Origin: an uncultured virus (IMG/VR IMGVR_UViG_3300034082_002096) | Taxonomy: Duplodnaviria > Heunggongvirae > Uroviricota > Caudoviricetes | Strand: one strand, 5' to 3' | DNA: 64,000 nt | IMG/VR virus record: IMGVR_UViG_3300034082_002096 | In this document: piece by piece, positions 45,987-61,986 of the stretch | How the letters are laid out: each line of letters starts with the position of its first letter | How positions within the stretch are numbered: the stretch's first letter is position 1 | Program-made: the position numbers and the translations under genes | The notes under the pieces: model-generated | Told to the model about the DNA's origin: nothing | The model's database searches: none | The model's input: the letters and a program-made list of their open reading frames with translations, nothing else

Positions 45987-46379
45987 TTACTCTTCTATTA
46001 CTTCTACAGGGACGCCAGCTTTTTTAGCAATGTCAATCATCATTTTTGTTCCTACCCCTCCACTAAATGCAATAACCATATCTGGTTTTCCTACTTTTAA
46101 CATTAATGAATTTCTTATAAATCCAGCCGATTTTCCATAGGTAGTCCAATCTGCTTCATATTCTTCTTGTTCGACATTTCTATCTTTTGCCCACATACTT
46201 GCTATACGGTCAGCACCTTTGGCACCGCCTTGTATTAAGACAATTTTGTTTTCTGATAAATTTATTGAATCATTTTTTGATTGCTGCGATACTTCATATA
46301 ATATATCTAATATTTCATATATTTTTGGTATGTTGCTATAATTTCTGCCGCCACATACTAATACTCTAAGTTCATCCAT
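45987..46379 (-). CDS. SLOG/YspA-like (DUF2493) protein
   Basis: VLVCGGRNY, GGAKGAD, AGFIRNSLM, GTKMMI. Confidence 0.85.
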   Translation of the reverse strand: MDELRVLVCGGRNYSNIPKIYEILDILYEVSQQSKNDSINLSENKIVLIQGGAKGADRIASMWAKDRNVEQEEYEADWTTYGKSAGFIRNSLMLKVGKPDMVIAFSGGVGTKMMIDIAKKAGVPVEVIEE

Positions 46380-46381
46380 AA

Positions 46382-47158
46382 TTAATCTAACTCTGATAAT
46401 GATCCATTTTTAATCAAATAGTCATAATCATATACTAATGGTAGTCTTTTTTCTATTTCCCATGTATACAATACACCAGATGGTATTTCAAATGTTTTAT
46501 AAAAATTGGTGCTTCCGTTATTAAATGAACTTAATGAAAACATTGTTTTTCCATTTGAATCATTTGCCGCATATCCAACAGCTTTGCCTGCTTTATTATA
46601 TACTGTATAGTAGTCAGTTACAAGTGGAATTTTGAATTTATCTATAGAAATAAAAACACTTCGTAATCCTTTATCTTCACCATATATGGTTATAAAGCTA
46701 TAAAGATTTTCAAAACCTGCTTTTTTTGTGGTTGACATTGCAAATGTATTATATTCGTTTATTTGTTCTGATATAATCTCTTTTGCATTTCCAGAATATG
46801 ATTTTATATCTACACTTGGTCTACGAACCATAGTGGTAACATATTTTGGTATTTTTACATATGCACTGTTATTTTTTAAATTACTTAATAAGTAATGATT
46901 GTCTATATAAAACTTTTCTTTTGGTATTCTAAACGAATGACTTAACTTACCAATTCCCTTAATATCAAATGCGTCGTTTTCTTTTCCAACATCAACAATA
47001 GTATCGGGTGCACCCATTTCTTTAGAATCAGGATACACGCTTCGTAGACCATCGGTTATTAACTTTTCGAGTGGTTTTCCTGTAGGAAGCGAATCAGTGT
47101 AATCCCAGTAGTGTTGAATGTGGCCTATTATTGAATATAATGAACTTTTAGATATCAT
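46382..47158 (-). CDS. Hypothetical protein, possible PD-(D/E)xK nuclease
   Basis: E...VDV...FDIK pattern. Confidence 0.45.
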   Translation of the reverse strand: MISKSSLYSIIGHIQHYWDYTDSLPTGKPLEKLITDGLRSVYPDSKEMGAPDTIVDVGKENDAFDIKGIGKLSHSFRIPKEKFYIDNHYLLSNLKNNSAYVKIPKYVTTMVRRPSVDIKSYSGNAKEIISEQINEYNTFAMSTTKKAGFENLYSFITIYGEDKGLRSVFISIDKFKIPLVTDYYTVYNKAGKAVGYAANDSNGKTMFSLSSFNNGSTNFYKTFEIPSGVLYTWEIEKRLPLVYDYDYLIKNGSLSELD

Positions 47159-48048
47159 GACTTATTATTGCACTCGTCACATAATGTTCTAACCCATGGG
47201 TTATCTGCTCTAGTGCTTCCTTTGTTTCCGCATACTTCACATGTACACATGCTCATGGAAGCTGCCATTGCAACAACACCATTAATATAATCATCGCTAG
47301 ATGTAGTATAAATTCGTAGACTTCCAAATTTTTCTTTTATCTGAACAATTTTGAAATTTGTATAGTTCATATTATAAACTCTACGATTAATATGCCAACA
47401 TGCATAATTGATAATATCTAACCAACCATTATTGCACTCTATAGAGCATGAAAGTATATTTTCATACTTTTTTGCTATTTCTTCATATTTTTCATTCATA
47501 TTAAAAATCTCTTTCTATGATACTTATTGTTGGACTTGTGAGGCTGGAATATTTGTTTAATATTTCTCTTGCTTTTTTTACATAGTCATCGCGTTGAAAT
47601 CCAGCTTTGTCTATACTCATTTCTATATAGCTATATGCAATTGATTGCAATGCACGTTTATAATCTCGTAATTCATTTTCACGATCAGATAATAAAAAAT
47701 CGGCTGCATCCATACCCCACTGTGCCCAATAGTTTTGTATAGATTGTTCTAGCGTTTTTCCACTAGAAACAATATCTGGGTCAGATGTTTGTATAATCCA
47801 ATTATTATCTTCAAAAAAATATTTACTATTTTCTGGTAATAAATTTTCTAATAAAATATTATTTGTCATTTTATATCACTATCATATTTGTTTACATTAT
47901 AGTCATCAATCAAAACTGGCCCTAGATCACGTTCTTGTTCCATATAATGACCATCATGAATAATCACATTTTTCATTTGACACGGACAACGTGGTTCGCC
48001 ATTTTGTGGCCCAATACATTCACACGTCCACATATCATTGTTTTTCAT
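47155..48048 (-). CDS. Three hypothetical ORFs (47155-47499 with QIKEKFG.LR and CxxC; 47501-47869; 47866-48048)
   Basis: Coupled co-oriented ORFs. Confidence 0.7.
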
Positions 48049-48434
48049 ATTTTACTTCCATCTATGAATTTATTAATACCATTTTTCATTGTAAGATAAT
48101 TGTCTAGATACATTTGAATATTTTTAGCACCAATTGGATTTTTACTATGAACATAAAATTGAAAATCTTGTGGAATATGCACAAGATTGTCCATGTCTCT
48201 AGATACCAATTCTTTTACAATATCATACCCAGTTGCTTCGCCTTTTCCCAAATCATGGTCAAAGCTTATATAAGAAGGAAACTGGTTACGCTTGGCGATT
48301 TCATAATAAACTTCAAATTCGTTACGAGCAATTGTCCATTCTTCACTCACATATTTATTATAGATGTAATATGGTGCCCATTTTACATCTTGCGGATTTC
48401 TCTCATCGTCAATAAAAAGATTCCAGTCCATCAT
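48045..48434 (-). CDS. Cyclic-phosphate-processing receiver-domain protein
   Basis: LFIDDERNP, ISFDHDLG, TGYD, VHSKNPIG. Confidence 0.8.
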   Translation of the reverse strand: MMDWNLFIDDERNPQDVKWAPYYIYNKYVSEEWTIARNEFEVYYEIAKRNQFPSYISFDHDLGKGEATGYDIVKELVSRDMDNLVHIPQDFQFYVHSKNPIGAKNIQMYLDNYLTMKNGINKFIDGSKI

Positions 48435-48460
48435 CCGTATCCATATATTATATTACTGAC

Positions 48461-48489
48461 ACTGTATCACATACATATGCCAATGTCAA
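48461..48489 (-). promoter_or_regulatory. Sigma70-type promoter
   Basis: TTGACA-N17-TACAGT. Confidence 0.6.
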
Positions 48490-48550
48490 GAACTTTAAAA
48501 TCTTAATAAAATGCAATAAATAGTAGTATACATTCAAATAGGACATCATT

Positions 48551-49726
48551 ATGACAATTAGAAAATTACGAGCAGGAAGAGTAGCAACCGCAAATGCGGC
48601 ATCTTGGATAGGTGATGCAGGAACAATATTTTATGATGAAGTTACTGGAACATTAAAAATAGCAGATGGCGAAACACCTGGTGGTAGAAGAATTGTATTA
48701 AACGCAGAAGATATAAATCTTGCATTTGGTGATTTTGTTGCTGAGAATAATAATTTATCTACTGTTCAGCCAAACCAAGATTTAAATCTTATATCTAATG
48801 GACTTGGAAGTGTTAATCTGGTAGGAGAATTTAATGTCCATACTACTGCTGGCGGATTAACCAGTAATCCAATATTTGTAGTTAAGTCTGATGGACAAAT
48901 AAAAATAATAGTTCCACAACCTGACAATTTAGAAGGTGCTGTTGGAATTATAGGAAATAATGCGGGCTTATTTCAAGCACCAGTTAATTCAGGAGTTATG
49001 CTTCACATTACTGGACAAGAAGGAATACCTAGTAGAAGTTATAATGATGCACTTGGAGATTATTCTGGATTTGTTGGTCGTAGAGCGAATGGAACACCAA
49101 GTGCACCTACCCAAATCTTAGCTAATCAAGAAGTGTCAAGATATGCAGCTAATGCATTTACTGATCAAGGTTATCAATTGACTGGCCTTGGACAATTACG
49201 TTGGTATGCTAACGAAAATCAAACAATAAGTGCACGGGGTGGTAGAGCAGAGTTTTGGGTTACACCAAATGGACAAATTACCGCACAAATTGTAGCCAGA
49301 ATTGATCCACAAAACGGAATCACTGCAACACAATTTACTGGTCCACTATTGGGAAATGTTGTGGGCAACACAACTGGAATACATACTGGAATACATACTG
49401 GATTATATAATAGAGGTATTAGAAATGCAGGAGTTATATCTGATGGTGGAACACTTACTATTAATTTTGAAACCGATGATATAGTAACATGCACTTGGGC
49501 CAATGGCATGACCCTTGCATATACTAATTATACTGCGGGAAGAGTTGTAAAACTAATAGCAACTAAGATAGCAGGTAGTGGAAATGATTCATTGAACTTA
49601 GATGGTGTTACTGCCTCGCAAGTATCGACAGGCTCTACTACATTTACTTCCTCTGCGAATATTACAACATTTGTCGAATTGATTTCTACAAATACTTCTA
49701 TTACTGGATTGTTTATCAAACTATAA
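48551..49726 (+). CDS. Tail-fibre-like virion protein
   Basis: TAAATA; G..GTIFYD..TGTLKIADG.TPGG; Gly/Thr/Asn-rich. Confidence 0.7.
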   Translation: MTIRKLRAGRVATANAASWIGDAGTIFYDEVTGTLKIADGETPGGRRIVLNAEDINLAFGDFVAENNNLSTVQPNQDLNLISNGLGSVNLVGEFNVHTTAGGLTSNPIFVVKSDGQIKIIVPQPDNLEGAVGIIGNNAGLFQAPVNSGVMLHITGQEGIPSRSYNDALGDYSGFVGRRANGTPSAPTQILANQEVSRYAANAFTDQGYQLTGLGQLRWYANENQTISARGGRAEFWVTPNGQITAQIVARIDPQNGITATQFTGPLLGNVVGNTTGIHTGIHTGLYNRGIRNAGVISDGGTLTINFETDDIVTCTWANGMTLAYTNYTAGRVVKLIATKIAGSGNDSLNLDGVTASQVSTGSTTFTSSANITTFVELISTNTSITGLFIKL

Positions 49727-49727
49727 C

Positions 49728-49752
49728 AAAAAAGCCCCAATGGGGCTTTTTT
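49728..49752. terminator. Bidirectional Rho-independent terminator
   Basis: A6-GCCCC-AAT-GGGGC-T6 between convergent units. Confidence 0.85.
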
Positions 49753-49755
49753 AAC

Positions 49756-49986
49756 TGGATCATTTTTTTGCTACTGTCGCGTCTACCATTCCGCCACTCT
49801 CTCATCAAAGATACTAGATGTATTGTTTACACAAACTTATCCAGCATATATGAACCAATAATCTACCGTTCATACCACGGGGGTTCCATAAACTATCTAG
49901 TATCCATGGCGAGAGAGGTAGGACTTGAACCTACAATTTTGTTTCCAAAACAGTTCTTATCGCTTTAATTTTGCTGAACTGATCCA
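49756..49986 (-). ncRNA. Circularly permuted tRNA-like RNA (Y-RNA/YrlA-like topology)
   Basis: tRNA 3' half with T arm and CCA (49954-49907) precedes the 5' half with acceptor strand and D arm (49803-49773); stems pair across the halves; ends pair as TGGATCA/TGATCCA. Confidence 0.8.
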
Positions 49987-49995
49987 TAATAGGGT

Positions 49996-50252
49996 GGTAA
50001 GAAGAATAAGACTGATAATCAATGACAATATACAATACACAAATTACAATCTACAATTCTGGCAATGGTTCATATATTTCTGGTTAGCATATGCACAAAT
50101 TCGCGTATTTAATATACCAGAGAACACAAACAATTTCGATCATACGATCTTGCTATGAATATTTTCATCCCAGAGGATAGTGATTAACAATTCATTATTC
50201 TTCTTACCTTATGGTATACCTAACACTGAGTGGACAATATCAGGTATCCCAT
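49996..50252 (-). ncRNA. Structured RNA: hairpin plus 14-bp IR-closed domain with tandem WTTG repeats
   Basis: GGTAAGAAGAATAA/TTATTCTTCTTACC; 13-bp hairpin with three G-U pairs. Confidence 0.6.
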
Positions 50253-50259
50253 AAATTCA

Positions 50260-50826
50260 TTATAGTAATTGTTCTGTTTCCAGAATTTTTACTGTGTCTG
50301 CATCAAGACTAATTTCTGTTCGAACATTAAGTTCAAGAAGTTGATCTTGTAATACTTGTTTTTGTTTTTTCAATACTGCTGCATTAGTCTTAAATGCATC
50401 TAAATCTTGTTGCAGCATAAAAGATGTTTTTACTAAACTATCTTGCCCGTAATATACTTCACCACCACTTTTACTACGAATTTTATCAAGTTTACCAGCA
50501 ATGACTTTTTCATCAATCATTGGGCGTTGTTTAGCCACCGAAGAATATACTTGAATTTTCTTTTCAAGACGAGCAATATTAGTCAGTAGATCATCAATAC
50601 CAGAGGTATTATTTGCAGAACTTACACTTTTCCTAACGTCATACAATACATCAGTAAGAGCATCACGCCGAGAAATATTTTTTACAAATTCAATACGACG
50701 AGCATCAATTACTTCTGTTGGATTTTCAAACTCTGTAATTTCAATATCAGTATTAATACCAATGCCAGATAGTGCTTCGTTAATTGCAAGTTGTAGTGCG
50801 TTTGCCTTACGGAGAGAAATTTTCAT
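50260..50826 (-). CDS. DIP1984-like coiled-coil protein
   Basis: MKISLRKA start, helical heptads, C-terminal LQDQLLELNVRTEI. Confidence 0.6.
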   Translation of the reverse strand: MKISLRKANALQLAINEALSGIGINTDIEITEFENPTEVIDARRIEFVKNISRRDALTDVLYDVRKSVSSANNTSGIDDLLTNIARLEKKIQVYSSVAKQRPMIDEKVIAGKLDKIRSKSGGEVYYGQDSLVKTSFMLQQDLDAFKTNAAVLKKQKQVLQDQLLELNVRTEISLDADTVKILETEQLL

Positions 50827-50853
50827 GTGCTTTTTCCTTTGTTTGTATGAGTA

Positions 50854-50882
50854 AATATACTATAGGCGGAACATAATGTCAA
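50854..50882 (-). promoter_or_regulatory. Sigma70-type promoter
   Basis: TTGACA-N17-TATATT. Confidence 0.7.
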
Positions 50883-50916
50883 GAACTATTTTACGTTCCG
50901 CCTACTTATTTTCAGA

Positions 50917-52050
50917 TTACATCATGTAATCCATCATTTTGCCATAATCGAACTGAACAGGCGGTGCATTTTTAGTAATAATCAGTTTTGCTTCATTAGG
51001 CATATCACCAATCTTATACACAAATGTATTAGTTTCTGGATCAAACTGATGAATGTTATTTGATTTGAAACTGATATCACCATCGCTGTCAAGTAGAGAT
51101 TTAATGCTTTTCTTGAGAACAGCATTTTTCTTAAACATATGTTCAATCAAGTCTTCGTCGTCTAGTGGATTAAATTCCAAATCAAAATCATTCGGAGTAA
51201 ATCCACGATAAGTCGGATAAAGCTTTACATTGATTCCGCCATATTCAAAGTTGATGCAATGGGTGTCATCACGCCGTGTTTCAGGATCAATATTAAGAAC
51301 ACCAAGAACTTCGATAAGAGTTTCGTTATACCGATTCATTTCTTCAACTGCTGCTGCCAACATATCAAAGTTAAAATAGTTAAAGACTTGCGTATAACGA
51401 ACAACATCATCAATGTGATTTTTGTTTATCAGATTATCTTCGCAATATTCGCGAACAAACTTATTTTCAAGAGTATCAAACGAGAAGTTATAATAGATTC
51501 GTCCTGGGCGATTTTTAAGATATTCGCTCACATTATTTCGTTGATTTGTGGTCAACAAGAATAGTTTTTTACTTGGATACACACCGTCAAACAGTGTCAA
51601 GATTTTTTCTTGATCACTATAGTCGTATACCTTTTCAAATTCATCAAAAAGAATAATACATGGGCCATTAATACTTTGAACAAACTGGTTAAAACCATCA
51701 CCACAATATGGCTTATTGATTACCAAAGTAGGAATACCTTGTGATGCTGCATTGCGTGACACTAGCTTTGCTAGCATAGTTTTACCACTGCCTTTTACTC
51801 CATTGAGCAATACACCAGTAGTCAATGGGCGGCTAATAAAAGTGTTGATAATGCGTTCTGCTTTACGAGTGCAATCACCATATAGCTTTTTTGGAAGTTC
51901 AAACCCATCAATTGGTTCTAGCCAATATTGTCCAGACATTTCATTATATTGAACAATATAATTTTGTGCTGGTAGTGTTTCACAGACTTCGATGTTTTTT
52001 TCGTCCATCATGTGATATTTGTTGCCCATGCGGACTACATAGTGTGGCAT
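50917..52050 (-). CDS. AAA+ ATPase
   Basis: GVKGSGKT, LFDEFEK, TTN, NRPGR. Confidence 0.88.
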   Translation of the reverse strand: MPHYVVRMGNKYHMMDEKNIEVCETLPAQNYIVQYNEMSGQYWLEPIDGFELPKKLYGDCTRKAERIINTFISRPLTTGVLLNGVKGSGKTMLAKLVSRNAASQGIPTLVINKPYCGDGFNQFVQSINGPCIILFDEFEKVYDYSDQEKILTLFDGVYPSKKLFLLTTNQRNNVSEYLKNRPGRIYYNFSFDTLENKFVREYCEDNLINKNHIDDVVRYTQVFNYFNFDMLAAAVEEMNRYNETLIEVLGVLNIDPETRRDDTHCINFEYGGINVKLYPTYRGFTPNDFDLEFNPLDDEDLIEHMFKKNAVLKKSIKSLLDSDGDISFKSNNIHQFDPETNTFVYKIGDMPNEAKLIITKNAPPVQFDYGKMMDYMM

Positions 52051-52069
52051 ATTATTTCCTTTCGGTGAA

Positions 52070-52516
52070 TTATTGCAGGGGAATTGCAGTTACAGAGTTA
52101 AATGGAGAACCATCAATCAACTTGGTAGACCATACCAAATAGATCAACACATTTTTTTCAGAATCCAACATACGGCTTACACGCATTTCTTTGAACAAAA
52201 TGCTAGTATTTCGAGAAAATACTTCTTCGAATTCCGCATCTACTGTTCCTGTAATTTTTACAGGTCCAGTTGCACGACATGCAATAGAGAATCGAGAAGG
52301 GTCTTCTGCAAGACCTACGTAACCACTTACTCCACCAGTTTGAGCATAACTGACATAGCAGCTTGCATTTTCAACTTCTGGATCATCAAACCGTTCTACC
52401 GATACTTTATCGTTAGAACCAAGCAGTCGCCATGTTGTTTCAACACTACCAATAACATCAGCCGATGCAATAGTAGCCGTAAGCATAAGAAAAGTAGAAG
52501 CAAGAAGATTTTTCAT
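52070..52516 (-). CDS. creA: CreA family protein
   Basis: Signal peptide, FDDPEV...CYVS, EDPSRFSIACRATGP, LIDGSP. Confidence 0.88.
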   Translation of the reverse strand: MKNLLASTFLMLTATIASADVIGSVETTWRLLGSNDKVSVERFDDPEVENASCYVSYAQTGGVSGYVGLAEDPSRFSIACRATGPVKITGTVDAEFEEVFSRNTSILFKEMRVSRMLDSEKNVLIYLVWSTKLIDGSPFNSVTAIPLQ

Positions 52517-52549
52517 TCTGTTACCTTATTTGTGTTTCGTTATGAGTGT

Positions 52550-52578
52550 ATTATAGGCGATTCGTGTATGTATGTCAA
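52550..52578 (-). promoter_or_regulatory. Sigma70-type promoter with CGAATCG box
   Basis: TTGACA-N8-CGAATCG-CC-TATAAT. Confidence 0.8.
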
Positions 52579-52590
52579 CAAGAATTTTTT

Positions 52591-52667
52591 TGGTCCTAGA
52601 AGAGAGATTCGAACTCTGCCCTACGTGATCCACAATCGCGTGTGCTAACCGCTAACACTATTCTAGG
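52591..52667 (-). tRNA. tRNA-His(GTG)
   Basis: CCTAGAA/TTCTAGG acceptor, TT-GTG-GA loop, TTCGAAT, ACCA. Confidence 0.85.
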
Positions 52668-52675
52668 AATATTAT

Positions 52676-53461
52676 TTATTGTTTTGGTTCAAGAACTTTA
52701 TTAATTACACCAACTAAGCTATCTTTTTGATCATCTGATAGAGAATCGGTTTTTATAGCGTCTATGATAATATCCATTGCATCTTCCAACGGCATATCTT
52801 CGTCGTCCTCATTTTCATCTTCATCAATAAAGACAATTTTCGCAGCAACAATCTGCCCATCATCATTTCGTTTAACATAACACTCATATCCACCATCGCC
52901 ATAGCCAGAATGACTTGCTACACCAAATCCAACATTTGAGATACCAAGATAGTTATATTCTTGATGTGTTCGAGTGCGTTCTTTCATATGTTGAACAATT
53001 TGTTGATGTTTTTCATCGAACCTATTTTCTTCTTTCAGAAGATTAACATATTCTTCAATGAATTCGTCGTCGTATGTTCTTACTGTGGTAGTGACAATTT
53101 GTCCTGCTGTGCCAGCACATACCTTTCCATAAAAAGTATTTAAATCGCCATATTCGCCTGTCTCTCCATCTGGATATTGACTATCATCAAAAAATCCAGC
53201 TTGACCACTATCAACACCTACATTTACTTCAGTAAGTTCGTTTATATTTTCAAAAGAATAATCTTTATGCCAAATAAAAATTTCAGCAATTCGATCACCC
53301 CATCCTGTTTTAGAATCAGGAAAAATAAGAGTGTCAGCAAACCAGTCTCCTACTAATACATTATCAACTATTCCAGAACACCAAATATCTTTAGTGTAGC
53401 ATGGGTCAGTAACACGAATAGTCGAAGAATTTATTGTAAATGAAGTAATATTTGCTGACAT
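52676..53461 (-). CDS. Hypothetical protein (DUF4241-like)
   Basis: VTDPCY, VGVDSGQAG, SGYGDGGY. Confidence 0.7.
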   Translation of the reverse strand: MSANITSFTINSSTIRVTDPCYTKDIWCSGIVDNVLVGDWFADTLIFPDSKTGWGDRIAEIFIWHKDYSFENINELTEVNVGVDSGQAGFFDDSQYPDGETGEYGDLNTFYGKVCAGTAGQIVTTTVRTYDDEFIEEYVNLLKEENRFDEKHQQIVQHMKERTRTHQEYNYLGISNVGFGVASHSGYGDGGYECYVKRNDDGQIVAAKIVFIDEDENEDDEDMPLEDAMDIIIDAIKTDSLSDDQKDSLVGVINKVLEPKQ

Positions 53462-53484
53462 TATATTTCCTTTATGTTGAGGTT

Positions 53485-53513
53485 ATATTAGCTGATTCGA
53501 ATACTGAAGTCAA
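53485..53513 (-). promoter_or_regulatory. Sigma70-type promoter with CGAATCA box
   Basis: TTGACT-N8-CGAATCA-GC-TAATAT. Confidence 0.75.
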
Positions 53514-53519
53514 GTAAAA

Positions 53520-53840
53520 TCATGGTTGATATGGCATACTTCCGCCAAATAATGCACTTTGATCACCATCAATAAACCAAGGCATATCATCAATCCATAC
53601 ATCAATTTTAATTTTATGATTTTCCCACATAAAATATTTTTTAGGTTGAATATTGGTCCCAAAACATTTATCAGGACCGATAATTTTTCCTATAGTGTTT
53701 TTTGGATCATCCATATGATGTTCCGCTCGTGCTGATACACAATAAACTGTATGACCTCTAGATATAGAATATCTAGCAAATTCATCCCAAAGATGAGGGT
53801 CTTTTGTATAGGTATCATCGTAATCTAATGCGATAATCAT
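53520..53840 (-). CDS. Small HAD-like phosphatase
   Basis: IALDYDDT, VSAR, WIDD. Confidence 0.75.
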   Translation of the reverse strand: MIIALDYDDTYTKDPHLWDEFARYSISRGHTVYCVSARAEHHMDDPKNTIGKIIGPDKCFGTNIQPKKYFMWENHKIKIDVWIDDMPWFIDGDQSALFGGSMPYQP

Positions 53841-53861
53841 ATATTTTCCAATGTAAAGAAA

Positions 53862-53941
53862 TGGCACTCCTGAGAGGATTCGAACCTCTATGTGTCCAGT
53901 TACCCTTTCTACACGTTCGTAGCGTGAGGGGATACAGAAGT
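53862..53941 (-). tRNA. Non-canonical tRNA-Arg(ACG)-like RNA lacking a 5' D arm
   Basis: ACTTCTG/CAGGAGT-G-CCA; CACG-CTACGAA-CGTG; AGAGG-TTCGAAT-CCTCT. Confidence 0.75.
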
Positions 53942-53950
53942 ATATTGTAT

Positions 53951-54310
53951 TTATAAAAGTTTTAGATTTCCAGTAATTTCCATCAATTCACTGTGCAATG
54001 CAGGTCCAACAGCAATACATGTATTGGTAGGAACATTATTAAATTCAGTTTTTCCTGAATCTGTAATCAATGCGGTAATGATATTAGCAGATTTTGCTTT
54101 CTCCATAATATCAAACAATTCTTGTTCACTATCTACACTTACAGCAATCTTAGTAAATTGACCCGAAAGCCATGATACCACAGAAGGATGATCTAAATTT
54201 TCAAGAGTTGCTTTTAAACTTGCGTGACAGCCTTGTGCGATAAGTTTACCTTTACGCATGTTAAGGTCTTTTCGCATTATTATAATTTGTTTGTAATAAT
54301 CGTTTTCCAT
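53951..54310 (-). CDS. pth2: Peptidyl-tRNA hydrolase Pth2
   Basis: RKDLNMRKGKLIAQGCHA, ITDSGKTE, TCIAVGP, TGNLKLL. Confidence 0.93.
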   Translation of the reverse strand: MENDYYKQIIIMRKDLNMRKGKLIAQGCHASLKATLENLDHPSVVSWLSGQFTKIAVSVDSEQELFDIMEKAKSANIITALITDSGKTEFNNVPTNTCIAVGPALHSELMEITGNLKLL

Positions 54311-55571
54311 TATTTCTTATACTTTTTTAAAATATTTTCTGCTTGCCCCATCATTAGAGTAGCAGCAAGTTGAATTTCATCAAACTTATCTGGATCATCT
54401 GGATTGCAGTCAGTTTCTTCTATAAGAACTAACAATGCACTCATCCAATTTATGCAGCCTTCTAGTGTTCCGGTTAATTCATCCATTACCATTCTCTTGC
54501 TTTTGAATCTGCTATATCTTTTAATGCAAGAATAGTCATACTAATATTTGTAATTTCAATTTGACTAGTTTTTGCATTCCCATCCCAATCTTCGTCTTCA
54601 TACACAAGGTGTGTTTTGCCTTGTGTATGAATTATTTTGGTATGTTCGTCTATACGACTTACATAATAATCTGACATTATTTCATACCGTTTTTACGAAT
54701 TTTACGAGCAGCATTTTTGCTTACTTGTTGGAATACTTCGCCAAGATTGTAGTAAACAAGTTCCCATAGCCAGATTGCAGGCTTATGTGATAGTTCCCAT
54801 AATAGGGCAAACGGCCACATTAATACCCATGATGCGAGACGATTTTTGTTTGAAGAAGCTGACATAGGATATGAAGTCGAATCTAGAAATTGTTCAAACT
54901 TTTCTTCTGATTTTAGCTTATCAACATATTCTTCTTTTGAACTAGATGGAAAATTTATTTTGATCCATGATTCAAATGCCAATTGAATGTTTAGCTTATT
55001 TTTATTTACAAAGTTTGGAAATTTCCAAAAACCTGTAAAAAGTGAACCACATACAATATAAACAATTGCAAACAAGACAATGATGAATGGATTGCTTACG
55101 ATAGCAGCCCATACTGGCACTCCGAATACCCATTGTAGCAGTGATAGTCCAGCAATTAGTGTAATGGTTCCCATAGCAAAGTTGTCATATTCTGATACCA
55201 CAATCCCTACTGCCAAAAAAGCAAGTAGAAAAATACCAAACCATATGCCACTAGATAGTCCAAGTAGTAATATTTCCATTTATATTTCCTTTTTATTTTT
55301 TAATTCCAAGAGTCCGCTGAATTATTTCAAGCTGATCTTTCATTCCTTCTTTGTATGCATCTTCTAGCAAACGAGTAATTTGACTACGATGTGTATTTTT
55401 TCCAACCATTTCATCAAAAAAAGCAAAAGTTCTTGATCGCCAAGCTTTATCGTTCCACTTGGCGACCATTAGTTCACCTTCTTCATCAATATACCATTTT
55501 GTATATCCGGGACCATATCCATCATATGGATCATGTCTTTCGTCATTATATGGCATTACCATATGCTCCAT
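54310..55571 (-). CDS. Four hypothetical ORFs (54310-54492, 54486-54677, membrane protein 54677-55279, 55293-55571)
   Basis: Coupled co-oriented ORFs. Confidence 0.7.
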
Positions 55572-56047
55572 GCTAGATGTTTTGCTAAGTAATAGTCTGG
55601 ATAAGATAGATGGTCATATTCGTCATCTTTTAAGATTTTACGTTCAAGACGTTTATTTGCAGTGCGAACAGTTTTTTTGGACCACTCTTTATACAAAGTA
55701 TTACGGCCAGATTCATTCCACCAACCGTCTCTGCTAAATTTAGCATAACGCTTGATATTATCTTTAATTTCTGCATCAATATCAACATCATCATATACGA
55801 CTTTTACAGTAGCATACTGCCGATATTCTGGTTTTCTTATAGACCAGAATCCACCTTCTACTGGGAATCCACTATAATCACGTTTACGTTTTTCTTCGTA
55901 AATTTCCAAATCACGTTCAAACTTTTTCTTATTTTCATCGGTCATGATATATTCATAATGCCAACGCTCATAAGAAATATTACGTTTAATAAAGTGTTCT
56001 CTGGATTGTTCTAGAATCCATCTTGGCTTTCTATAAGTTCTACTCAT
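55556..56047 (-). CDS. Basic hypothetical protein (MSRTYRK start)
   Basis: GGAG SD; Arg/Lys/aromatic-rich. Confidence 0.75.
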   Translation of the reverse strand: MSRTYRKPRWILEQSREHFIKRNISYERWHYEYIMTDENKKKFERDLEIYEEKRKRDYSGFPVEGGFWSIRKPEYRQYATVKVVYDDVDIDAEIKDNIKRYAKFSRDGWWNESGRNTLYKEWSKKTVRTANKRLERKILKDDEYDHLSYPDYYLAKHLAWSIW

Positions 56048-56058
56048 TTTGTTTCTCC

Positions 56059-56105
56059 ATTAGGTTAGTAACCTAATCAGAGTCGTAATTAATCCAAAAT
56101 TTCAT
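56059..56105 (-). promoter_or_regulatory. Leader peptide MKFWINYDSD* with stop codon inside a hairpin abutting the SD
   Basis: AGGA SD, ATG at 56105, TAG at 56075-56073, ATTAGGTT-ACT-AACCTAAT then GGAG. Confidence 0.6.
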
Positions 56106-56117
56106 TTTAATTATCCT

Positions 56118-56642
56118 TTATCTTTCGTGCCATTGGCCCATCAGTGATTGAGCCTGCGTCATATGTTTATATAGTAATCCATTTTCAGAATCAGTATGGA
56201 CCCACCGTCCTTTTCCCAAAACTTCTTTGAACCTATATCGAGTATCATCGAATAGTATATAGTCTACCACATCTTCCGCATAGTTGTCAAGGTAATCTTG
56301 TACTTCGTATGCACGATCTTTGGCTTCCAATTCTGGATTATTCAGTGGATTGGTTTTCCAAGGATCAGCAAACTTACCACGAAAACCACTATTTTTAAAT
56401 GTAGTCATAACCCAATGTTTGGTCATTTCATGCTTATAATCAAAACCATCTTTCCATGTAGTCATCAAAACAAATGCAACCGGATATCTGTCCCACATTT
56501 TGTTACAAAAATCAATCGCAACTGGGTCAAATTTACTCCATTTCTCATATTCATTATCACACGAATAGTGAACTCTCGAAGATGTAAAAACACCATCAAC
56601 GTCAAGAAATGCAAAATATTTAGTTTTTTCAGGTCGCTGCAT
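56118..56642 (-). CDS. HAD phosphatase (RNA-repair type)
   Basis: FLDVDGV, TTWK, R..EV..YL, YILFDD. Confidence 0.8.
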   Translation of the reverse strand: MQRPEKTKYFAFLDVDGVFTSSRVHYSCDNEYEKWSKFDPVAIDFCNKMWDRYPVAFVLMTTWKDGFDYKHEMTKHWVMTTFKNSGFRGKFADPWKTNPLNNPELEAKDRAYEVQDYLDNYAEDVVDYILFDDTRYRFKEVLGKGRWVHTDSENGLLYKHMTQAQSLMGQWHER

Positions 56643-56665
56643 AACAAAACTCCATTATGTATATT

Positions 56666-56694
56666 ACGTTACTATGATTCGCTGCTTGTGTCAA
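56666..56694 (-). promoter_or_regulatory. Sigma70-type promoter with CGAATCA box
   Basis: TTGACA-N7-CGAATCA-TAG-TAACGT. Confidence 0.6.
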
Positions 56695-57049
56695 CCCATA
56701 TGATACGTGCATCTAGTGGCGGATTGTAGATTTTTTCAAACTTGCGAATAGTTCCTTCAACGTTTCTTCCATCATTTCTATATACTACATTTTTCCTACA
56801 TTTGTCTGGTGCATTTTCAAAATATATAAATGAAAAAGAATGATCTGGGTATCGTTTTTGTAACATTTCTACTGATATGCGTAATACACGATTATCACAA
56901 AAATTAACATCAGAAATAATAATATCGTCATTTGTTTGAATAAGTTGCTCTATAGATTTAATATCATCAATCACATAACCAGTCATTGAATTCAAAAGAT
57001 GTGATTTTCCACTTCCTGGTAATCCAATGACTAGAGTGATTGATGGCAT
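56672..57049 (-). CDS. Small P-loop kinase (polynucleotide kinase-like)
   Basis: VIGLPGSGKS, C..N..YR. Confidence 0.65.
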   Translation of the reverse strand: MPSITLVIGLPGSGKSHLLNSMTGYVIDDIKSIEQLIQTNDDIIISDVNFCDNRVLRISVEMLQKRYPDHSFSFIYFENAPDKCRKNVVYRNDGRNVEGTIRKFEKIYNPPLDARIIWVDTSSES

Positions 57050-57616
57050 TATATTAATCCTTTTGATTTTAACTCGCTATACAATGTATCTACTGAAATT
57101 GATTTCGAAGAATAATTAGTAGAATTACCATAATATTCTGCTTCTGATCTGCTATTATAGACTATAGACCTACAAAGTGCTTTATATTCAATAAAGGAAA
57201 TTTTTGGACATACTTTTTCTAATATTTGGTCAAACACCGTAAAATCTGGTTCTGGATTATCACTGGAATAATATGTAGCCTCTGTATCATCCCAACAGTT
57301 ACCACCACTGTATCCACCAGTTGACCATTCTGTTTTCAAGGTCTTACGTGGACCTTTTTCATCTTGATAGCGTTTTTTAGTTGGAAAATATTCTTCACCA
57401 GCTATTTCGTGAACAATTGTTTGAAATTCATTTCTGTCCATTTTGAATTACTTCCTCGTTATATAATTTTCCTGATTTAACCATCGTATCGCATCCAACC
57501 ATTAATAATGCAAAGCCAAAGCATATTGCAGTGAATTGCCATTGATTTTTCATTGCAATAATGAATATAAAAGTAAACGAAATAACTACAAATACTTGAA
57601 CAATTGTTATAAGCAT
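57049..57616 (-). CDS. Two hypothetical ORFs (57049-57441; membrane protein 57428-57616)
   Basis: Coupled ORFs. Confidence 0.7.
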
Positions 57617-57625
57617 TATATATTC

Positions 57626-58165
57626 CTATTCTTTTCCATGATGATCAATTGGTTTCCATATTTTCTTTTTCATAATACGACCAACATCATCGAAGGATAA
57701 TGGCATATAATTATGACAATCTACACCAACATCAATAGATAGTGAATTTGGATCATCTGGCAACGATCCATGGCTATGACCATATAATTGTATTGAACCG
57801 TAGTGACAACGATTCCAAACACGCATAGCATAGTGACATAGTGTAATCCATTGACCATTTACTTTGATTTCTTTTAGATCATCAATTGTATCCCATCCGA
57901 TTATTTGGACACCAGTTTTGTCATGGTTTCCTTTAATTAGATGCTTGATACCATTTAATCTATTGAAATATTCTTGTCCTTTTTCTAGATTTGAAAAACA
58001 AAAATCACCAAGAAACCAAACATGATCGTATTGTTGAATTTTTGAATTCCAATTAGAAATAATAGTGTCGTCCATTTCTTGAACCCCAGAAAATGGACGA
58101 TTACTATATTTAATAATATTTGCATGTCCAAGATGCAAATCAGAGGTAAACCATGTATTAGTCAT
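57626..58165 (-). CDS. Calcineurin-like metallophosphoesterase
   Basis: SDLHLGH, LGDF, GNHD, YGHSH, DVGVD. Confidence 0.9.
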   Translation of the reverse strand: MTNTWFTSDLHLGHANIIKYSNRPFSGVQEMDDTIISNWNSKIQQYDHVWFLGDFCFSNLEKGQEYFNRLNGIKHLIKGNHDKTGVQIIGWDTIDDLKEIKVNGQWITLCHYAMRVWNRCHYGSIQLYGHSHGSLPDDPNSLSIDVGVDCHNYMPLSFDDVGRIMKKKIWKPIDHHGKE

Positions 58166-59036
58166 TCTTCTATTCCAAAATGTTTCATCATAAATTTATT
58201 TGTTATTGGGTCAACAAACTGACCGCATTCTTTAATAATAAGCGTTGCAAACATTTCTAAATCTGGGTGTGCAAATGGGATTTCAAATCCTAGTCTGTCA
58301 TATTTTTGAATAGATTGTTCCGCAAGTTGTTTAATTTTTTCATTCATAATACTATGCCCACCTTAAAAAGAATTCTATTTCTTGTTCTTTATTATCAAAA
58401 TAAACGAGATCAGATATTGCCCAAAAACCATTATCATGACACCATTCGAAAATTTCTATTAACTTATCATCATCATTGTCAGTTTCTTTAATAAACTGAA
58501 TTCCATTTATTTCTTCACGTAAATACATTTCCCATACGTCTTCTTCTATTTCGACGGGTTGCATACTTGAAGGATGATGGAATTTTTTATATTTCATTAC
58601 TATTACTCTATATCTTCATCTAGCGGAACTTCTTGCGGATCGGCTGGAATTCTTGATTTATATAACTGCCCATTATGGTCACAGGCATACCATATACCAT
58701 CTACTAGTTTTTCAACCCATGCAATATGGTATGACGAATCCCAACTCAAACTACTAGCATTGGCATCCCACAAGCTTTCTGTCTCTCCTAAAGAACGTTC
58801 GGTTCCTGCGACTGAAGTATACGTTCCGTCTCTGTTACGAATATATTCACTATATATTACACGATATGTCATTCTAAAAATACACCTACATGACCCCATG
58901 ATACTTCAGTTGCACGTTTTGCAACTGAAACATTAGAGACTTCTATCCAATTATCTTTAAAATCTCCACCTTCATAATAGACTTGGTAATCTTGTGGTAA
59001 TGTTTGTAATTGTTTAATTAATTCAGATACTGTCAT
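58162..59036 (-). CDS. Four small hypothetical ORFs (58162-58347, 58352-58597, 58603-58872, 58869-59036)
   Basis: Tightly packed co-oriented ORFs. Confidence 0.65.
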
Positions 59037-59037
59037 A

Positions 59038-59263
59038 TTACCAACCGTCACTTCCCCATTTGCGATTTACTTCTTCATCAGTGAATTGTCCACCCATACG
59101 ATCAAAATTATCTTGACAAGATTCTGCTGAAGTATTTTTAAGTTCTGAAAACTTATTTGCAATTTGCCGTGCTACCTGATGATGTCCGATTATTCCACCC
59201 CATTCTGCATCATGGCGAACTTTTGTTTCAATTAGTTGTAAAATTTCATCGTGATAGGATCAT
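59038..59263 (-). pseudogene. 73-codon open frame one base out of register with its ATG
   Basis: ATG-A-TCC TAT CAC...; frame is open to TAA at 59038. Confidence 0.4.
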
Positions 59264-59604
59264 TATTACAATCCTTCGACAACCATTAATACAGCCTCAT
59301 ATATAACCCAAATTATGGCTGCTGCTAGTAGTACAAGAACCAGACCCACTAATATAGCAGCTACAATATCGGATACGGCAGCTCCTACAAACATAACTAC
59401 TAGTAGTGCAGTAATTAGTGCAGCTTTGCGTTCGTTATTCATTTTCTTCCCATTCTAAAAGTTTTTCCATAAGACCATACACACCAAGATTCTGAACATG
59501 CTGTTTAAAGGCTTGCTCTGTTGTAGTGCCCCAATATAACGATGGGATAAGGGTATAGGCTACATTATCAATCCACCATTGTTTGTATAGTTTATATGTT
59601 TCCA

Positions 59605-60720: not shown

Positions 60721-60744
60721 TTTATTTTCTCTATAATTGTAAAA

Positions 60745-61938
60745 TTAAAAAATTACAGTTATACTACTGTAATGTTCAAATTCAATTTTATTTTTATTAC
60801 CATTGTCATCTATTTCATAAAGTTGAACGGCATGGTCAGTTTCTAATAAATCTTCAATATGTCGTTTCACTTTGTTTTTATCCGATGATTCATATGGGTT
60901 TACTGATGCCCCACCACCACCGTATCCTTGTGCATGAACTCGATATTTCATTCTGCTAAGTGACCTCCATCTGGATTTTTCTTATATTCTGCATCGCCTA
61001 AGTTAATTAACTTTTCAATATGTTTAGGATCAAAGTTCCAAGCAGGTTCTACCATGTTTATCAAATTATACCCATGACGATGGTTACATCTGCCATAATA
61101 CAGAGCATATCCATCGCCATGTGGACCAATTGAATATTTCATTTCGCATTTACACTCTTCAAATAGAGCCTGAAAAGAGTTTACTTCTATCATAATCACA
61201 CACCTTGTTCAATTTAGTTTTCTAAAAATTTAGTCTTGTTGGATTTGATGGTCCGTGAGATATTTCTTAGCTTCATCTACAATCTGAGAAATTTCGTTAA
61301 ATTGCTCAAATGTCATTAGTGCAGGCCCATTCATACTCATTCGCACATTAAGTCCACGAGTGTCAGTATGAAACCAATCATCTACTCCACGCTGGAAAGG
61401 GCGGCGATGCTCATGCTTGGTTGCATAATCCCAACCATCTAGTGCTACAAAAATAGTAATATTTGTGCTTCCCTGTCCGTTGTTTATACCAGTAAATGTT
61501 TTACGTAGTTCAATACGGGCATTTTCCTTGCCCATATTAAAATGTTTAGATTTCCAACGTGTTGCATCAGCTTCGCTCATTTGTGGAACATATCCGCCTG
61601 TGGGGCCATCTTCGAATCCAGCCTCAATGATAACTTTTGCAGGTTTAGTAAAGTCAAGTAATGATTTTTCTTCTGTCATTTTAGTTTACCGGATGCAAAA
61701 CAAGACAACGGGGTTTTTTCAACATTGCTTCCCACAAGTCTTCATCCATGTCTGCATCGTCAGCAGACAATGTAGAATCATAAACTTCGCCATACCAAGT
61801 AGTTTCTGCAAGATAGATACCATCTGGATCGGCACCAGAAAGTGGACTATATCCATTTCCTTCGGCATCTTTTTGCACAATACATTCCATTTCTGGATCA
61901 AGTGTTGATAAAATCTCTAATAGTTCACGAACTTTCAT
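60745..61938 (-). CDS. Four hypothetical ORFs (60745-60951, 60948-61199, 61230-61679, 61681-61938)
   Basis: Co-oriented ORFs. Confidence 0.7.
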
Positions 61939-61986
61939 ATATTATCCTATCGTTTTCTTGTTAATTGTTTATTAATTAATCAGTAA

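What the first reader, a model, noticed from the sequence alone, without database searches (positions are those of the whole stretch)
49996..50826. DIP1984-like coiled-coil gene followed by an IR-closed RNA carrying tandem (A/U)UUG repeats
Seen: right after the stop codon is a 13-bp hairpin with three G-U pairs (ATACCTGATATTG/CAGTGTTAGGTAT), which favours a minus-strand RNA. A perfect 14-bp inverted repeat (50208-50195 with 50009-49996) then encloses about 185 nt. Near its 3' arm lies ATTGCCAGA-ATTGTAG-ATTGTAA-TTTGTGT-ATTGTAT-ATTGTC-ATTG, seven WTTG units at roughly 7-nt spacing, with more upstream. The protein's C-terminus (LQDQLLELNVRTEI) recalls DIP1984-family proteins (from memory, unverified). 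Inference: periodic single-stranded repeats suit binding by an oligomeric ring, one repeat per subunit as in TRAP, suggesting a dedicated protein-ncRNA pair, possibly toxin/antitoxin-like or a nuclease sensor.
Basis: partly seen in the sequence, partly recalled or inferred. Interest (0 to 1): 0.82.

Follow-up and report, generated by a model that had tools for sequence, protein, structure and literature searches.

The report
Phage RNA-protein pair with UG heptads
Downstream of a small helical phage gene lies a folded non-coding RNA carrying UG motifs exactly seven bases apart; this gene-RNA pair recurs in hundreds of large-phage sequences, cultured Caulobacter phages included, and appears undescribed.

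Summary
The hairpin, the 14-bp inverted repeat and the 7-nt-spaced TTG units are all present.

They belong to a ~270-nt structured RNA family with five covarying helices: 93% of cells paired against 74% shuffled, and 31 of 31 pairs show double changes. Its only invariant columns are the U-G of about nine motifs spaced exactly 7 nt apart. Rfam 15 has no match.

The link between the RNA and the 188-aa gene holds in both directions:
- 144 of 160 gene-anchored loci carry the RNA on the gene's strand, and all 16 misses are cut contigs.
- 56 of 58 RNA-anchored loci carry the gene.

Cultured phages CcrColossus, CcrPW and three Brevundimonas phages show the same arrangement in unannotated gaps.

The protein is helical, is predicted to self-pair, and resembles the DIP1984/DUF6847 fold only at structure level.

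My best reading is a dedicated ribonucleoprotein. Its function is unknown and binding is untested. This scan had not noted it before.

The parts
50854..50882 (-). sigma-70-like promoter (TTGACA, 17 nt, TATATT) ahead of the gene
   Evidence: 11 of 12 consensus positions. This is a consensus match only. The region as a whole has no more promoter-like sites than shuffles.
50260..50826 (-). 188-aa helical protein gene, the partner of the RNA
   Evidence: ORF. Family size: 209 hits and 1744 clusters at 50% identity. AF2 model pLDDT 88.9. Self-pairing predicted, ipSAE 0.69 against 0.00 for the best control.
49992..50259 (-). core structured RNA, about 268 nt, a member of the family aligned in A2
   Evidence: nhmmer; alignment A2; covariation; helix coordinates in the window.
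50213..50250 (-).
   Evidence: Read. The family's P1 covaries (helices 1-2). The window's own row is misaligned at P1 in A2.
50182..50208 (-). 5' purine-rich strand of closing helix P2 (P2a 50196-50203, P2b 50182-50187).
   Evidence: I2; helices 3-4.
49996..50020 (-). 3' pyrimidine-rich strand of closing helix P2 (P2a 50001-50008, P2b 50015-50020). It contains the inverted-repeat arm 49996-50009.
   Evidence: (I2).
50068..50131 (-). P3 (50126-50131 with 50068-50073) enclosing P4 (50116-50120 with 50080-50084). The P4 loop holds two UG motifs (G at 50096 and 50088).
   Evidence: (helices 5-7).
50020..50066 (-). single-stranded run of seven (A/U)UUG units (G at 50063, 50054, 50047, 50040, 50033, 50026, 50020)
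   Evidence: No covarying partner was found.
49756..49986 (-). permuted tRNA-like module. In order: closing helix 49986-49977 with 49765-49756; anticodon-stem 3' strand, long variable arm, T arm, acceptor 3' strand and G-CCA (49954-49907); a 103-nt insert that extends the acceptor helix (49906-49804); acceptor 5' strand, D arm and anticodon-stem 5' strand (49803-49773).
   Evidence: coordinates, and ARAGORN calls a tRNA in 52 of 64 virtual joins; pairs I1 and I9. MFE -83.6, z -4.5. The homologous module in L081 is seen.
49727..49753 (-). intrinsic terminator ending the gene-RNA-tRNA-mimic transcript
   Evidence: 12-pair stem followed by a T run; I3.

Best explanation
The gene and the sequence after it form one transcription unit of a large lake phage. 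The order is: promoter, 188-aa helical protein, ~270-nt structured RNA, tRNA-shaped module, terminator.

The RNA and the protein are a dedicated pair, most likely a ribonucleoprotein. The RNA folds into a frame: P1 hairpin, long closing helix P2, and P3/P4. This frame displays about eight single-stranded UG motifs at exact 7-nt spacing. I infer that copies of the self-associating protein read these motifs, one motif per binding site.

In this lineage the RNA has gained a circularly permuted tRNA mimic with the same topology as the tRNA-like module of bacterial YrlA Y RNAs. This, and the frequent position of the RNA inside phage tRNA arrays and next to RNA-repair genes, suggest that the particle acts on or alongside tRNAs or tRNA-handling enzymes during infection.

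Shown: the RNA fold, the repeats, the strict two-way linkage, and the tRNA-like shape. Inferred: binding, stoichiometry and function.
For: RNA fold.
- On 69 distinct sequences, 31 pairs in 5 helices are 93.2% paired, against 73.8% in shuffles (0 of 500 shuffles reach it) and 36-51% when partners are slid by 1-3 columns. All 31 of 31 pairs carry double changes.
- G-U pairs are frequent, so the fold exists only on the gene's strand.
- RNAalifold on five cultured-phage copies that were not used to derive the structure again predicts P1 and the long closing helix, with compensatory changes.

Repeats.
- The only invariant columns of A2 are the T-G of the repeats.
- Spacing between neighbouring motifs is exactly 7 nt in 66-69 of 69 sequences. 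The base after G is never G.
- No covarying partner was found for them.

Linkage.
- 144 of 160 loci fetched by the protein hold the RNA, all on the gene's strand. The 16 misses all have a cut flank.
- Of 80 loci fetched by an RNA-only DNA pattern, 58 hold the RNA. Of those, 56 hold the gene, on the same strand in 56 of 56 and within 446 nt. The other 2 are cut 0 and 115 nt from the RNA.
- Other neighbours of the window gene are not conserved.
- The 202 RNA-bearing loci give 128 distinct sequences, falling into 41 clusters at 80% identity.

Cultured phages.
- The A1 profile finds CcrColossus gp272 at E 1.2e-19, and the UG heptads lie 200 nt downstream.
- CcrPW, Kikimora, Domovoi and Bambus have unannotated gaps of 286-314 nt after the homologue, each with chains of 5-6 UG at 7 nt.

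Protein.
- The self-pairing model scores ipSAE 0.69 against 0.00 for the best of 3 controls. That mark was reached by 20 of 30 proteins solved as pairs of one chain and 1 of 23 solved as single chains. The runs share at least 94% of contacts and the partner's pLDDT is at least 89.
- The conserved residues are rich in Arg and Lys.

Context.
- Among the 20 loci scanned, the RNA starts directly after a tRNA's CCA in 7: L016, L029, L033, L038, L052, L069, L101. It is followed at once by a tRNA in 3: L145, L102, L074.
- The window holds an RNA ligase, HAD_SAK_2, cREC, PTH2 and three tRNAs nearby.

Expression hint.
- A freshwater metatranscriptome holds an identical 192-nt contig, 50044-50235, at depth 19.7.
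Against: - No binding experiment or RNA-protein model was possible, so the protein-repeat contact is inferred from linkage alone.
- The protein has no recognised RNA-binding domain. It is predicted to be a dimer, which does not by itself explain eight sites.
- I chose the helices on the same alignment on which they were then counted. That inflates the shuffle control; the slide control and one search are the fairer tests.
- Loci overlap between the viral and metagenome collections, so the counts are not counts of independent lineages (one search gives the deduplicated numbers).
- The RNA-library contig does not prove transcription, because DNA can be present in such a library.
- The tRNA-like module is seen in only 2 of 141 distinct RNA 3' flanks, plus one near-identical DNA contig. 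It therefore cannot define the family's function.
- In the Caulobacter and Brevundimonas phages the pair is not flanked by tRNAs within the 3.6-8 kb shown.
Confidence: 0.55

Rival explanations
1. The RNA works without the neighbouring protein touching the repeats. Either it self-assembles into an RNA-only multimer, like GOLLD and ROOL of the same kind of phage, or its UG array soaks up a host RNA-binding factor. The gene would be linked for another reason, such as chaperoning, processing or regulating the RNA.
For: - Related loci carry GOLLD elsewhere, in 5 of 20 loci scanned.
- Like GOLLD and ROOL, this RNA sits among phage tRNAs.
- The paper reporting that GOLLD and ROOL form RNA-only cages was seen only as a search listing and abstract start (10.1101/2024.12.08.627333).
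- The protein lacks a known RNA-binding domain.
Against: - The near-obligate two-way linkage on one strand persists where sequence similarity is lost. That is what one expects of physical partners.
- Neither the GOLLD nor the ROOL model matches this RNA.
Confidence: 0.2
2. The RNA is a cis-acting untranslated region that controls translation or stability of the 188-aa gene's own mRNA, for example by autoregulation.
For: - It is adjacent to the gene (within 120 nt) in 104 of 144 loci, either just upstream or just downstream.
- The window has no terminator between the gene and the RNA.
Against: - The position is not fixed: 65 are adjacent downstream, 39 adjacent upstream, and 40 lie 140-1547 nt away.
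- Some copies start right at a tRNA's 3' end and are followed by another tRNA, so they would be cut out of the transcript.
- A 270-nt RNA with five helices is large for a leader.
Confidence: 0.1
3. The heptad repeats act as DNA, as iterons or centromere-like sites bound by the coiled-coil protein, and not as RNA.
For: Heptad repeats beside a small helical protein recall plasmid and phage partition or origin sites. This comparison is recalled, not tested.
Against: - The repeats are embedded in helices kept by compensatory and G-U changes that work on one strand only.
- They lie in tRNA operons and abut tRNA ends.
- An identical contig is present in an RNA library.
Confidence: 0.04
4. The 3' module is a true circularly permuted tRNA-Leu gene whose halves are processed and joined into a working tRNA.
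For: - The 3' half, carrying an encoded CCA, precedes the 5' half.
- ARAGORN calls a tRNA in 52 of 64 virtual joins, several of them as Leu.
- An RNA ligase gene lies in the window.
Against: - No join gives a canonical anticodon loop with U33 (read).
- In L081 the acceptor stem is capped by a 5-nt loop with no CCA.
- The ends of the module pair into a helix that covaries between the window and L081: GGATCA/TGATCC against GAATCA/TGATTC. That is what one expects of a mimic, not of a tRNA precursor.
Confidence: 0.03
5. A type III toxin-antitoxin-like pair (ToxIN-like).
For: A small protein gene sits next to a repeat-bearing RNA.
Against: - The repeats are 7-nt units inside one folded RNA, not tandem units of about 36 nt. 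The ToxIN features are recalled, not checked here.
- The order of gene and RNA varies.
- The protein is a helical bundle with no nuclease match.
- The PADLOC library was not searched.
Confidence: 0.03

Closest known systems
YrlA-type bacterial Y RNAs with Ro60/Rsr (Chen et al. 2014, PMC4201824; passages read)
   Same: The window's 3' module has the same circular order as the YrlA tRNA-like domain: variable arm, T arm, closed 'acceptor' stem-loop, D arm. Its two ends form a helix. Its 7-bp acceptor is like that of M. smegmatis YrlA, which RNase P cuts and which receives CCA. The overall logic also matches: a protein-binding module joined to a tRNA-like module.
   Different: - No Rfam Y RNA or YrlA match.
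- No TROVE/Ro60 gene in the 64-kb window or in G001.
- The module is an add-on found in 2 of 141 distinct flanks.
- The conserved partner is a helical 188-aa protein, not a Ro ring.
GOLLD RNA (Rfam RF02032) and ROOL: large ornate phage RNAs near tRNAs
   Same: Same habitat (lake phages), same neighbourhood (tRNA arrays), and a large multi-helix non-coding RNA of unknown function. GOLLD occurs in 5 of 20 related loci scanned.
   Different: - No model match.
- It lies apart from GOLLD, in variable order.
- It is shorter, about 270 nt.
- It has heptad UG repeats and an obligate protein-gene partner, which are not described for GOLLD or ROOL (recalled).
TRAP with the trp leader, and HutP with hut mRNA
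   Same: Short invariant triplet-like motifs at fixed spacing in single-stranded RNA, with free spacers. This is the signature of one site per subunit of an oligomeric protein. HutP sites also have a 7-nt period (recalled).
   Different: - The motif is UG or UUGY, not (G/U)AG or UAG.
- The RNA is a free-standing folded RNA, not a terminator or antiterminator leader.
- The protein is helical and predicted to be dimeric, not a beta-rich ring.
DIP1984 family / Pfam DUF6847 (PF20935); PDB 3kdq
   Same: 3kdq is the best structural match of the model. An Atlas cluster named 'DIP1984 family protein' aligns at TM 0.60/0.65. Size and all-helical build are similar.
   Different: - No sequence-model match for any of the 36 members tested or for the profile against PDB sequences.
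- The family has no known function. Searches for DIP1984, DUF6847, PF20935 and 3KDQ listed three papers: one names DIP1984 once in an Acinetobacter surveillance study, two hold the string 3KDQ, and by title or abstract none concerns this protein family.
Permuted tRNA genes of Cyanidioschyzon merolae and some archaea (recalled)
   Same: The 3' half lies upstream of the 5' half on one strand, and a helix links the acceptor ends.
   Different: No canonical anticodon loop can be formed. The relative L081 has a capped acceptor without CCA. No bulge-helix-bulge processing system is expected in bacteria (recalled).

Membership tests
DIP1984 / DUF6847 (PF20935) | match to the Pfam or NCBIfam model at or above its cut-off | tested here: not met
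   No PF20935 hit (E<=0.01) or (36 members, E<=1). One search (NCBIfam, E<=1) gave no DIP1984 model hit. That NCBIfam holds such a model is recalled.
DIP1984 / DUF6847 (PF20935) | shared fold with the solved member (3kdq) | tested here: inconclusive
   Foldseek E 2.2e-3, prob 1.0, TM 0.48/0.58. VIA Z 10.1, rmsd 6.2, 141 residues aligned, 21% identity. It is the top hit, but below the roughly 13 advised for helical folds. Atlas TM 0.60/0.65. That 3kdq is DIP1984 itself is recalled.
YrlA / bacterial Y RNA | tRNA-like domain in the order V arm, T arm, closed acceptor stem-loop, D arm, with T-loop and D-loop signature bases | tested here: met
   Read: T loop TTCAAGT, D loop with GG, U8 and A14 in place. 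Fold. ARAGORN on virtual joins. The relative L081 covaries in the acceptor, D and closing stems.
YrlA / bacterial Y RNA | Ro60/Rsr (TROVE) gene in the same genome, usually adjacent | tested here: inconclusive
   None among 77 window ORFs scanned and none in G001. The rest of the phage genome is not held.
YrlA / bacterial Y RNA | match to Rfam Y RNA-type models | tested here: not met
   (E<=10) gives only a partial tRNA hit, 49918-49970, 17.1 bits.
GOLLD (RF02032) | covariance-model match | tested here: not met
   No match in the window or in the L057 copy. GOLLD matches elsewhere in L101, L052, L029, L036 and L145.
Permuted tRNA gene | joining the halves gives a canonical 7-nt anticodon loop (U33, anticodon, purine 37) and a free CCA end | tested here: not met
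   None of the joins has U33. L081 lacks CCA and its acceptor is capped by the loop CACGG.
Type III toxin-antitoxin (ToxIN-like) | tandem array of about 34-36-nt RNA repeats directly upstream of an endoribonuclease toxin gene | tested here: not met
   The repeats are 7-nt units within one fold. The RNA lies up- or downstream of the gene. No nuclease fold was found. The defining features are recalled.
TRAP / HutP-type repeat-binding attenuation proteins | beta-rich ring protein of the TRAP or HutP fold | tested here: inconclusive
   The model is all-helical apart from two 3-residue strands. TRAP and HutP are absent from the fold-search lists, which does not exclude them.

The most novel reading that the evidence does not exclude
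A new class of viral ribonucleoprotein. A scaffold RNA displays a 'heptad code' of UG motifs that is read by an array of helical protein dimers. Large phages would use the particle to hold, protect or deliver tRNAs or tRNA-repair and tRNA-processing enzymes while the host attacks its own tRNAs. In this reading, the tRNA mimic fused to the RNA in this lineage is a built-in copy of the normal client.
Probability: 0.15. Interest if true: 0.9.

Novelty: categorically new. Interest (0 to 1): 0.82.

Why it matters
Large structured non-coding RNAs with a dedicated protein partner are rare, and each one found so far (RNase P, SRP, tmRNA, Ro-Y RNA, OLE) has opened a field.

This pair is abundant. The protein family has at least 1744 clusters at 50% identity, and the 202 RNA-bearing loci fall into 41 clusters at 80% identity. 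It is confined to large, tRNA-rich phages, and its invariant 7-nt UG periodicity asks for a structural explanation.

It also occurs in plaque-forming phages of Caulobacter crescentus and Brevundimonas. The question is therefore directly testable by genetics, RIP-seq and cryo-EM in a harmless model host.

It also gives a first functional lead for the DIP1984/DUF6847-like fold. And it shows a Y-RNA-like tRNA mimic outside a Ro system.

Tried and rejected
Searches that found nothing.
- 'phages' blastn with the region: no match.
- tblastn with the window protein and with P0030: no match. Only the CcrColossus protein found GenBank relatives.
- A single-protein scan of viral contigs found no relative. 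An exact 25-nt T-arm/acceptor pattern found none either.
- The window's own assembly is not held. The nearest record, G001, is a 30-kb fragment without the region.
- ARAGORN and Rfam at gathering score see nothing in the region.

Analyses that failed or were dropped.
- My first regex scan for permuted tRNAs in L001-L080 was too noisy to use.
- mafft-qinsi is not installed, so I used genafpair.
- I built no covariance model, because a ~280-position model exceeds the calibration limit. nhmmer profiles were used instead. They miss the Caulobacter and Brevundimonas copies (E 0.002 at best).
- TROVE in L081's contig could not be searched.
Conservation of the tRNA-like module therefore rests on the window, L081 and one DNA contig of run X16.

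Literature.
- Eight searches found no description of this RNA or protein. One search was badly framed and uninformative.
- The catalogue of 10,006 candidate viral RNAs (PMC10690425) may contain it unnamed. Six of its supplementary files were searched for six of my contig numbers without a hit, but files 1, 2 and 4 could not be searched.

Earlier findings of this scan.
- Nothing by place or by sequence.
- A word search returned two notes on heptad repeats in other genomes (e1-1103323, e1-2079519). I did not test them and they did not alter my reading.

RNA runs.
- Parts of the region without cover in the RNA runs are not used as evidence.

Readings considered and dropped.
- Group I intron in a tRNA-Leu, two-piece tmRNA and RNase P RNA. 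None has an Rfam hit, and the conserved cores do not fit by eye.
Full report
**What is in the window.**
On the minus strand the layout is:
- a strong sigma-70-like promoter at 50882-50854, 11 of 12 consensus positions;
- a 188-codon ORF at 50826-50260;
- about 500 nt without a convincing ORF;
- an intrinsic terminator at 49753-49727.

- The 13-bp hairpin with three G-U pairs lies directly after the stop codon.
- The perfect 14-bp inverted repeat encloses 185 nt (I2).
- The run of (A/T)TTG units has a 7-nt period. Four TTG at exact spacing are unique in the 64 kb, against 0.06 expected.

ARAGORN and Rfam, at gathering score and at E<=10, find nothing in this stretch.

**The window's phage.**
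Pfam shows a large phage. It has family B DNA polymerase, topoisomerase II, thymidylate synthase, ClpP, PhoH, MazG, heme oxygenase and a bilin reductase. Around the finding it has an RNA-repair flavoured set: cREC receiver domain, PTH2, HAD_SAK_2, an RNA ligase, NUDIX, SIR2 and a YAcAr SLOG domain. Three tRNAs lie nearby. The stretch is found in lake-water metagenomes. Its own assembly is not held.

**The protein.**
It belongs to a large uncharacterised family.
- 209 hits in the clustered protein collection.
- 1744 clusters at 50% identity at E<=1e-3, and 384 at E<=1e-30.
- No Pfam, NCBIfam or PDB sequence match, and only a weak PHROG of unknown function.

The AlphaFold2 model is confident (pLDDT 88.9) and helical, with one short strand at each end.

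Its best structural matches are:
- PDB 3kdq, an uncharacterised C. diphtheriae protein. Foldseek gives E 2.2e-3, prob 1.0. VIA gives Z 10.1, 141 residues aligned, 21% identity.
- An Atlas cluster named 'DIP1984 family protein' (PF20935), TM 0.60/0.65.
- In the viral library, proteins of cultured large phages, such as CcrColossus K4K6G4 at TM 0.78.

A two-copy model passes the self-pairing test. The ipSAE is 0.69 against 0.00 for the best of three controls. That mark was reached by 20 of 30 known homodimers and 1 of 23 monomers. The runs share at least 94% of contacts, and pLDDT is at least 89.

**The RNA is a family.**
The closest locus, L081 (61% protein identity), has a homologous downstream region. 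It keeps the same inverted-repeat arms, with one G-U wobble that pairs only on the gene's strand.

An nhmmer profile seeded with eight copies, then rebuilt from 69, finds the element in 144 of 160 protein-anchored loci, always on the gene's strand:
- 65 lie within 120 nt downstream;
- 39 lie within 120 nt upstream;
- 35 lie further downstream (140-1547 nt);
- 5 lie further upstream (203-219 nt).

All 16 loci without it have a flank cut short.

Alignment A2 (69 distinct sequences) supports five helices:
- P1, a hairpin;
- P3;
- P4.

On 31 pairs, 93.2% of cells pair, against 73.8% in shuffles and 36-51% when partners are slid. Every pair shows double changes. I chose these helices on the same alignment, so the slide control is the fairer one.

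As a test on sequences not used for that choice, RNAalifold on five cultured-phage copies predicts P1 and the closing helix again, with compensatory changes.

**The repeats.**
The only invariant columns of A2 are the T and G of nine motifs. Pooled over the motifs:
- the base before UG is U in 72%;
- the base after G is C or U in 87%, and never G;
- the spacers vary freely.

Neighbouring motifs are exactly 7 nt apart in 66-69 of 69 sequences. They come in sets of two (in the P4 loop), four and two. Most members carry a variable hairpin between the four and the last two. The window and 16 other sequences lack it, which gives one run of six or seven.

No covarying partner exists for these segments. 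This pattern is the signature of repeated recognition by a multi-site protein; that interpretation is an inference.

**The reverse test.**
I scanned viral contigs with an RNA-only pattern: part of the P4 3' strand plus four motifs. Of the 80 loci with full flanks:
- 58 hold the RNA by nhmmer;
- 56 of these also hold the gene, on the same strand in 56 of 56 and 446 nt away at most;
- the other two are cut 0 and 115 nt from the RNA;
- 22 are chance matches with neither RNA nor gene.

Other genes next to the window's gene are not conserved across loci. After removing duplicates, the 202 RNA-bearing loci give 128 distinct sequences in 41 clusters at 80% identity.

**Not a known RNA.**
- No Rfam 15 family matches the window copy (E<=10) or the more typical L057 copy (E<=5).
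- In 20 related loci, Rfam finds only tRNAs, GOLLD (5 loci) and one freshwater-2 motif. All of these lie outside the element.
- Eight literature searches found no description.
- A catalogue of candidate viral RNAs could be checked only in part.

**Cultured phages.**
The family profile finds CcrColossus gp272 at E 1.2e-19. A TG-heptad pattern hits 200 nt downstream of it, in an unannotated 284-nt gap.

tblastn with gp272 finds CcrPW and seven Brevundimonas jumbo phages. In each of the four I fetched, the homologue is followed by an unannotated gap of 286-314 nt. Each gap holds:
- a P1-like hairpin;
- purine-rich and pyrimidine-rich closing strands;
- chains of 5-6 UG at 7 nt, as CUGUG units in Kikimora.

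nhmmer barely sees these copies. Synteny, fold and repeats have therefore outlived sequence similarity.

**Context in tRNA arrays.**
Among the 20 loci scanned with Rfam, the RNA begins directly after a tRNA's CCA in seven: L016, L029, L033, L038, L052, L069 and L101. It is followed within 8 nt by a tRNA in three: L145, L102 and L074. Others have their own TTGACA/TATAAT promoter, seen by eye. So the RNA is probably released by tRNA-processing enzymes in many phages; this is inferred.

**The extra module in this window.**
Between the core RNA and the terminator lies what reads as a class II, Leu-like tRNA in circularly permuted order:
- anticodon-stem 3' strand, long variable arm, T arm, acceptor 3' strand and G-CCA (49954-49907);
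- a 103-nt insert that prolongs the acceptor helix;
- acceptor 5' strand, U8, D arm and anticodon-stem 5' strand (49803-49773).

ARAGORN calls a tRNA in 52 of 64 virtual joins. The stretch folds this way with z -4.5. Its outer ends pair, 49986-49977 with 49765-49756 (I9).

L081 has the same module with every stem changed but still paired:
- acceptor CTCTCTC/GAGAGAG against TGCTAAA/TTTAGTA;
- D stem GCG/CGC against GTG/CAC;
- closing helix GGATCA/TGATCC against GAATCA/TGATTC.

In L081 the acceptor is simply capped by a 5-nt loop, without CCA. No join gives a canonical anticodon loop. I therefore read it as a tRNA mimic, not a tRNA gene.

This V-T-acceptor-D order, with ends forming a stem, is that of YrlA Y RNAs. 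One of those, with a 7-bp acceptor, is cut by RNase P and receives CCA (PMC4201824, passages read). No Ro/TROVE gene is in the window.

The module is rare: 2 of 141 distinct 3' flanks. A DNA relative (run X16) keeps 49805-49995 without any change, while the core RNA and the gene diverge.

**Expression.**
One freshwater metatranscriptome holds an identical 192-nt contig, 50044-50235, inside the RNA at depth 19.7. Another holds a 151-nt contig inside the gene at depth 2.3. This is a hint only.

**Reading.**
Shown:
- a widespread structured RNA;
- invariant heptad UG motifs;
- obligate linkage to a helical protein predicted to self-pair;
- a tRNA mimic in this lineage.

Inferred:
- the protein binds the motifs (probability about 0.55);
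- the particle works in the phage's tRNA and RNA-repair programme (about 0.3).

The toxin-antitoxin, DNA-site and true-tRNA readings are unlikely, for the reasons given under the rival explanations.

Noticed in passing
window 49846-49857 and 50066-50077: There is a perfect 12-nt complementarity between the insert in the tRNA-like module's acceptor extension and the core RNA segment that forms the 3' strand of P3 (I4). A second, 11-nt match with one mismatch links the insert (49819-49829) to UUG repeats (50029-50039; I6). This could be an alternative pairing or switch within the transcript. L081 lacks the insert.
   Followed up: partly
L101 2077-2539, L052 555-1018, L029 397-858, L036 4902-5364, L145 1-326: GOLLD RNA (RF02032, 151-217 bits) occurs in the same phage contigs, each copy with an embedded tRNA-like hit. 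It is separate from the RNA described here.
   Followed up: partly
L003 3962-4029: A freshwater-2 RNA motif (RF02980, 54.3 bits) lies just downstream of the RNA's terminator.
   Followed up: no
window 46000-63200: This is an RNA-repair and NAD-related island interleaved with tRNA-His, tRNA-Ile and tRNA-Phe. It holds YAcAr SLOG, cREC receiver, PTH2, HAD_SAK_2, a metallophosphoesterase, an RNA ligase (59605-60720), NUDIX and SIR2.
   Followed up: partly
window 31090-32299: Heme oxygenase and ferredoxin-dependent bilin reductase genes lie side by side, with PhoH and MazG elsewhere in the window. This set is typical of cyanophages (recalled), which hints at a cyanobacterial host.
   Followed up: no
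window 52070-52516: A CreA-family protein (PF05981, E 8.6e-49) with a signal-peptide-like start is encoded in a phage, next to an AAA ATPase (PHROG 2376). Both are shared only with L081 and L082.
   Followed up: no
BFVD hits to Catovirus CTV1 and Yasminevirus: The protein's fold is also matched, at TM 0.61-0.63, by uncharacterised proteins of giant eukaryotic viruses. Whether these have a UG-heptad RNA nearby was not examined.
   Followed up: no
L016 about 4043: A T-arm-like hairpin not called by ARAGORN lies between the RNA and a regular tRNA. It may be a degenerate tRNA.
   Followed up: no
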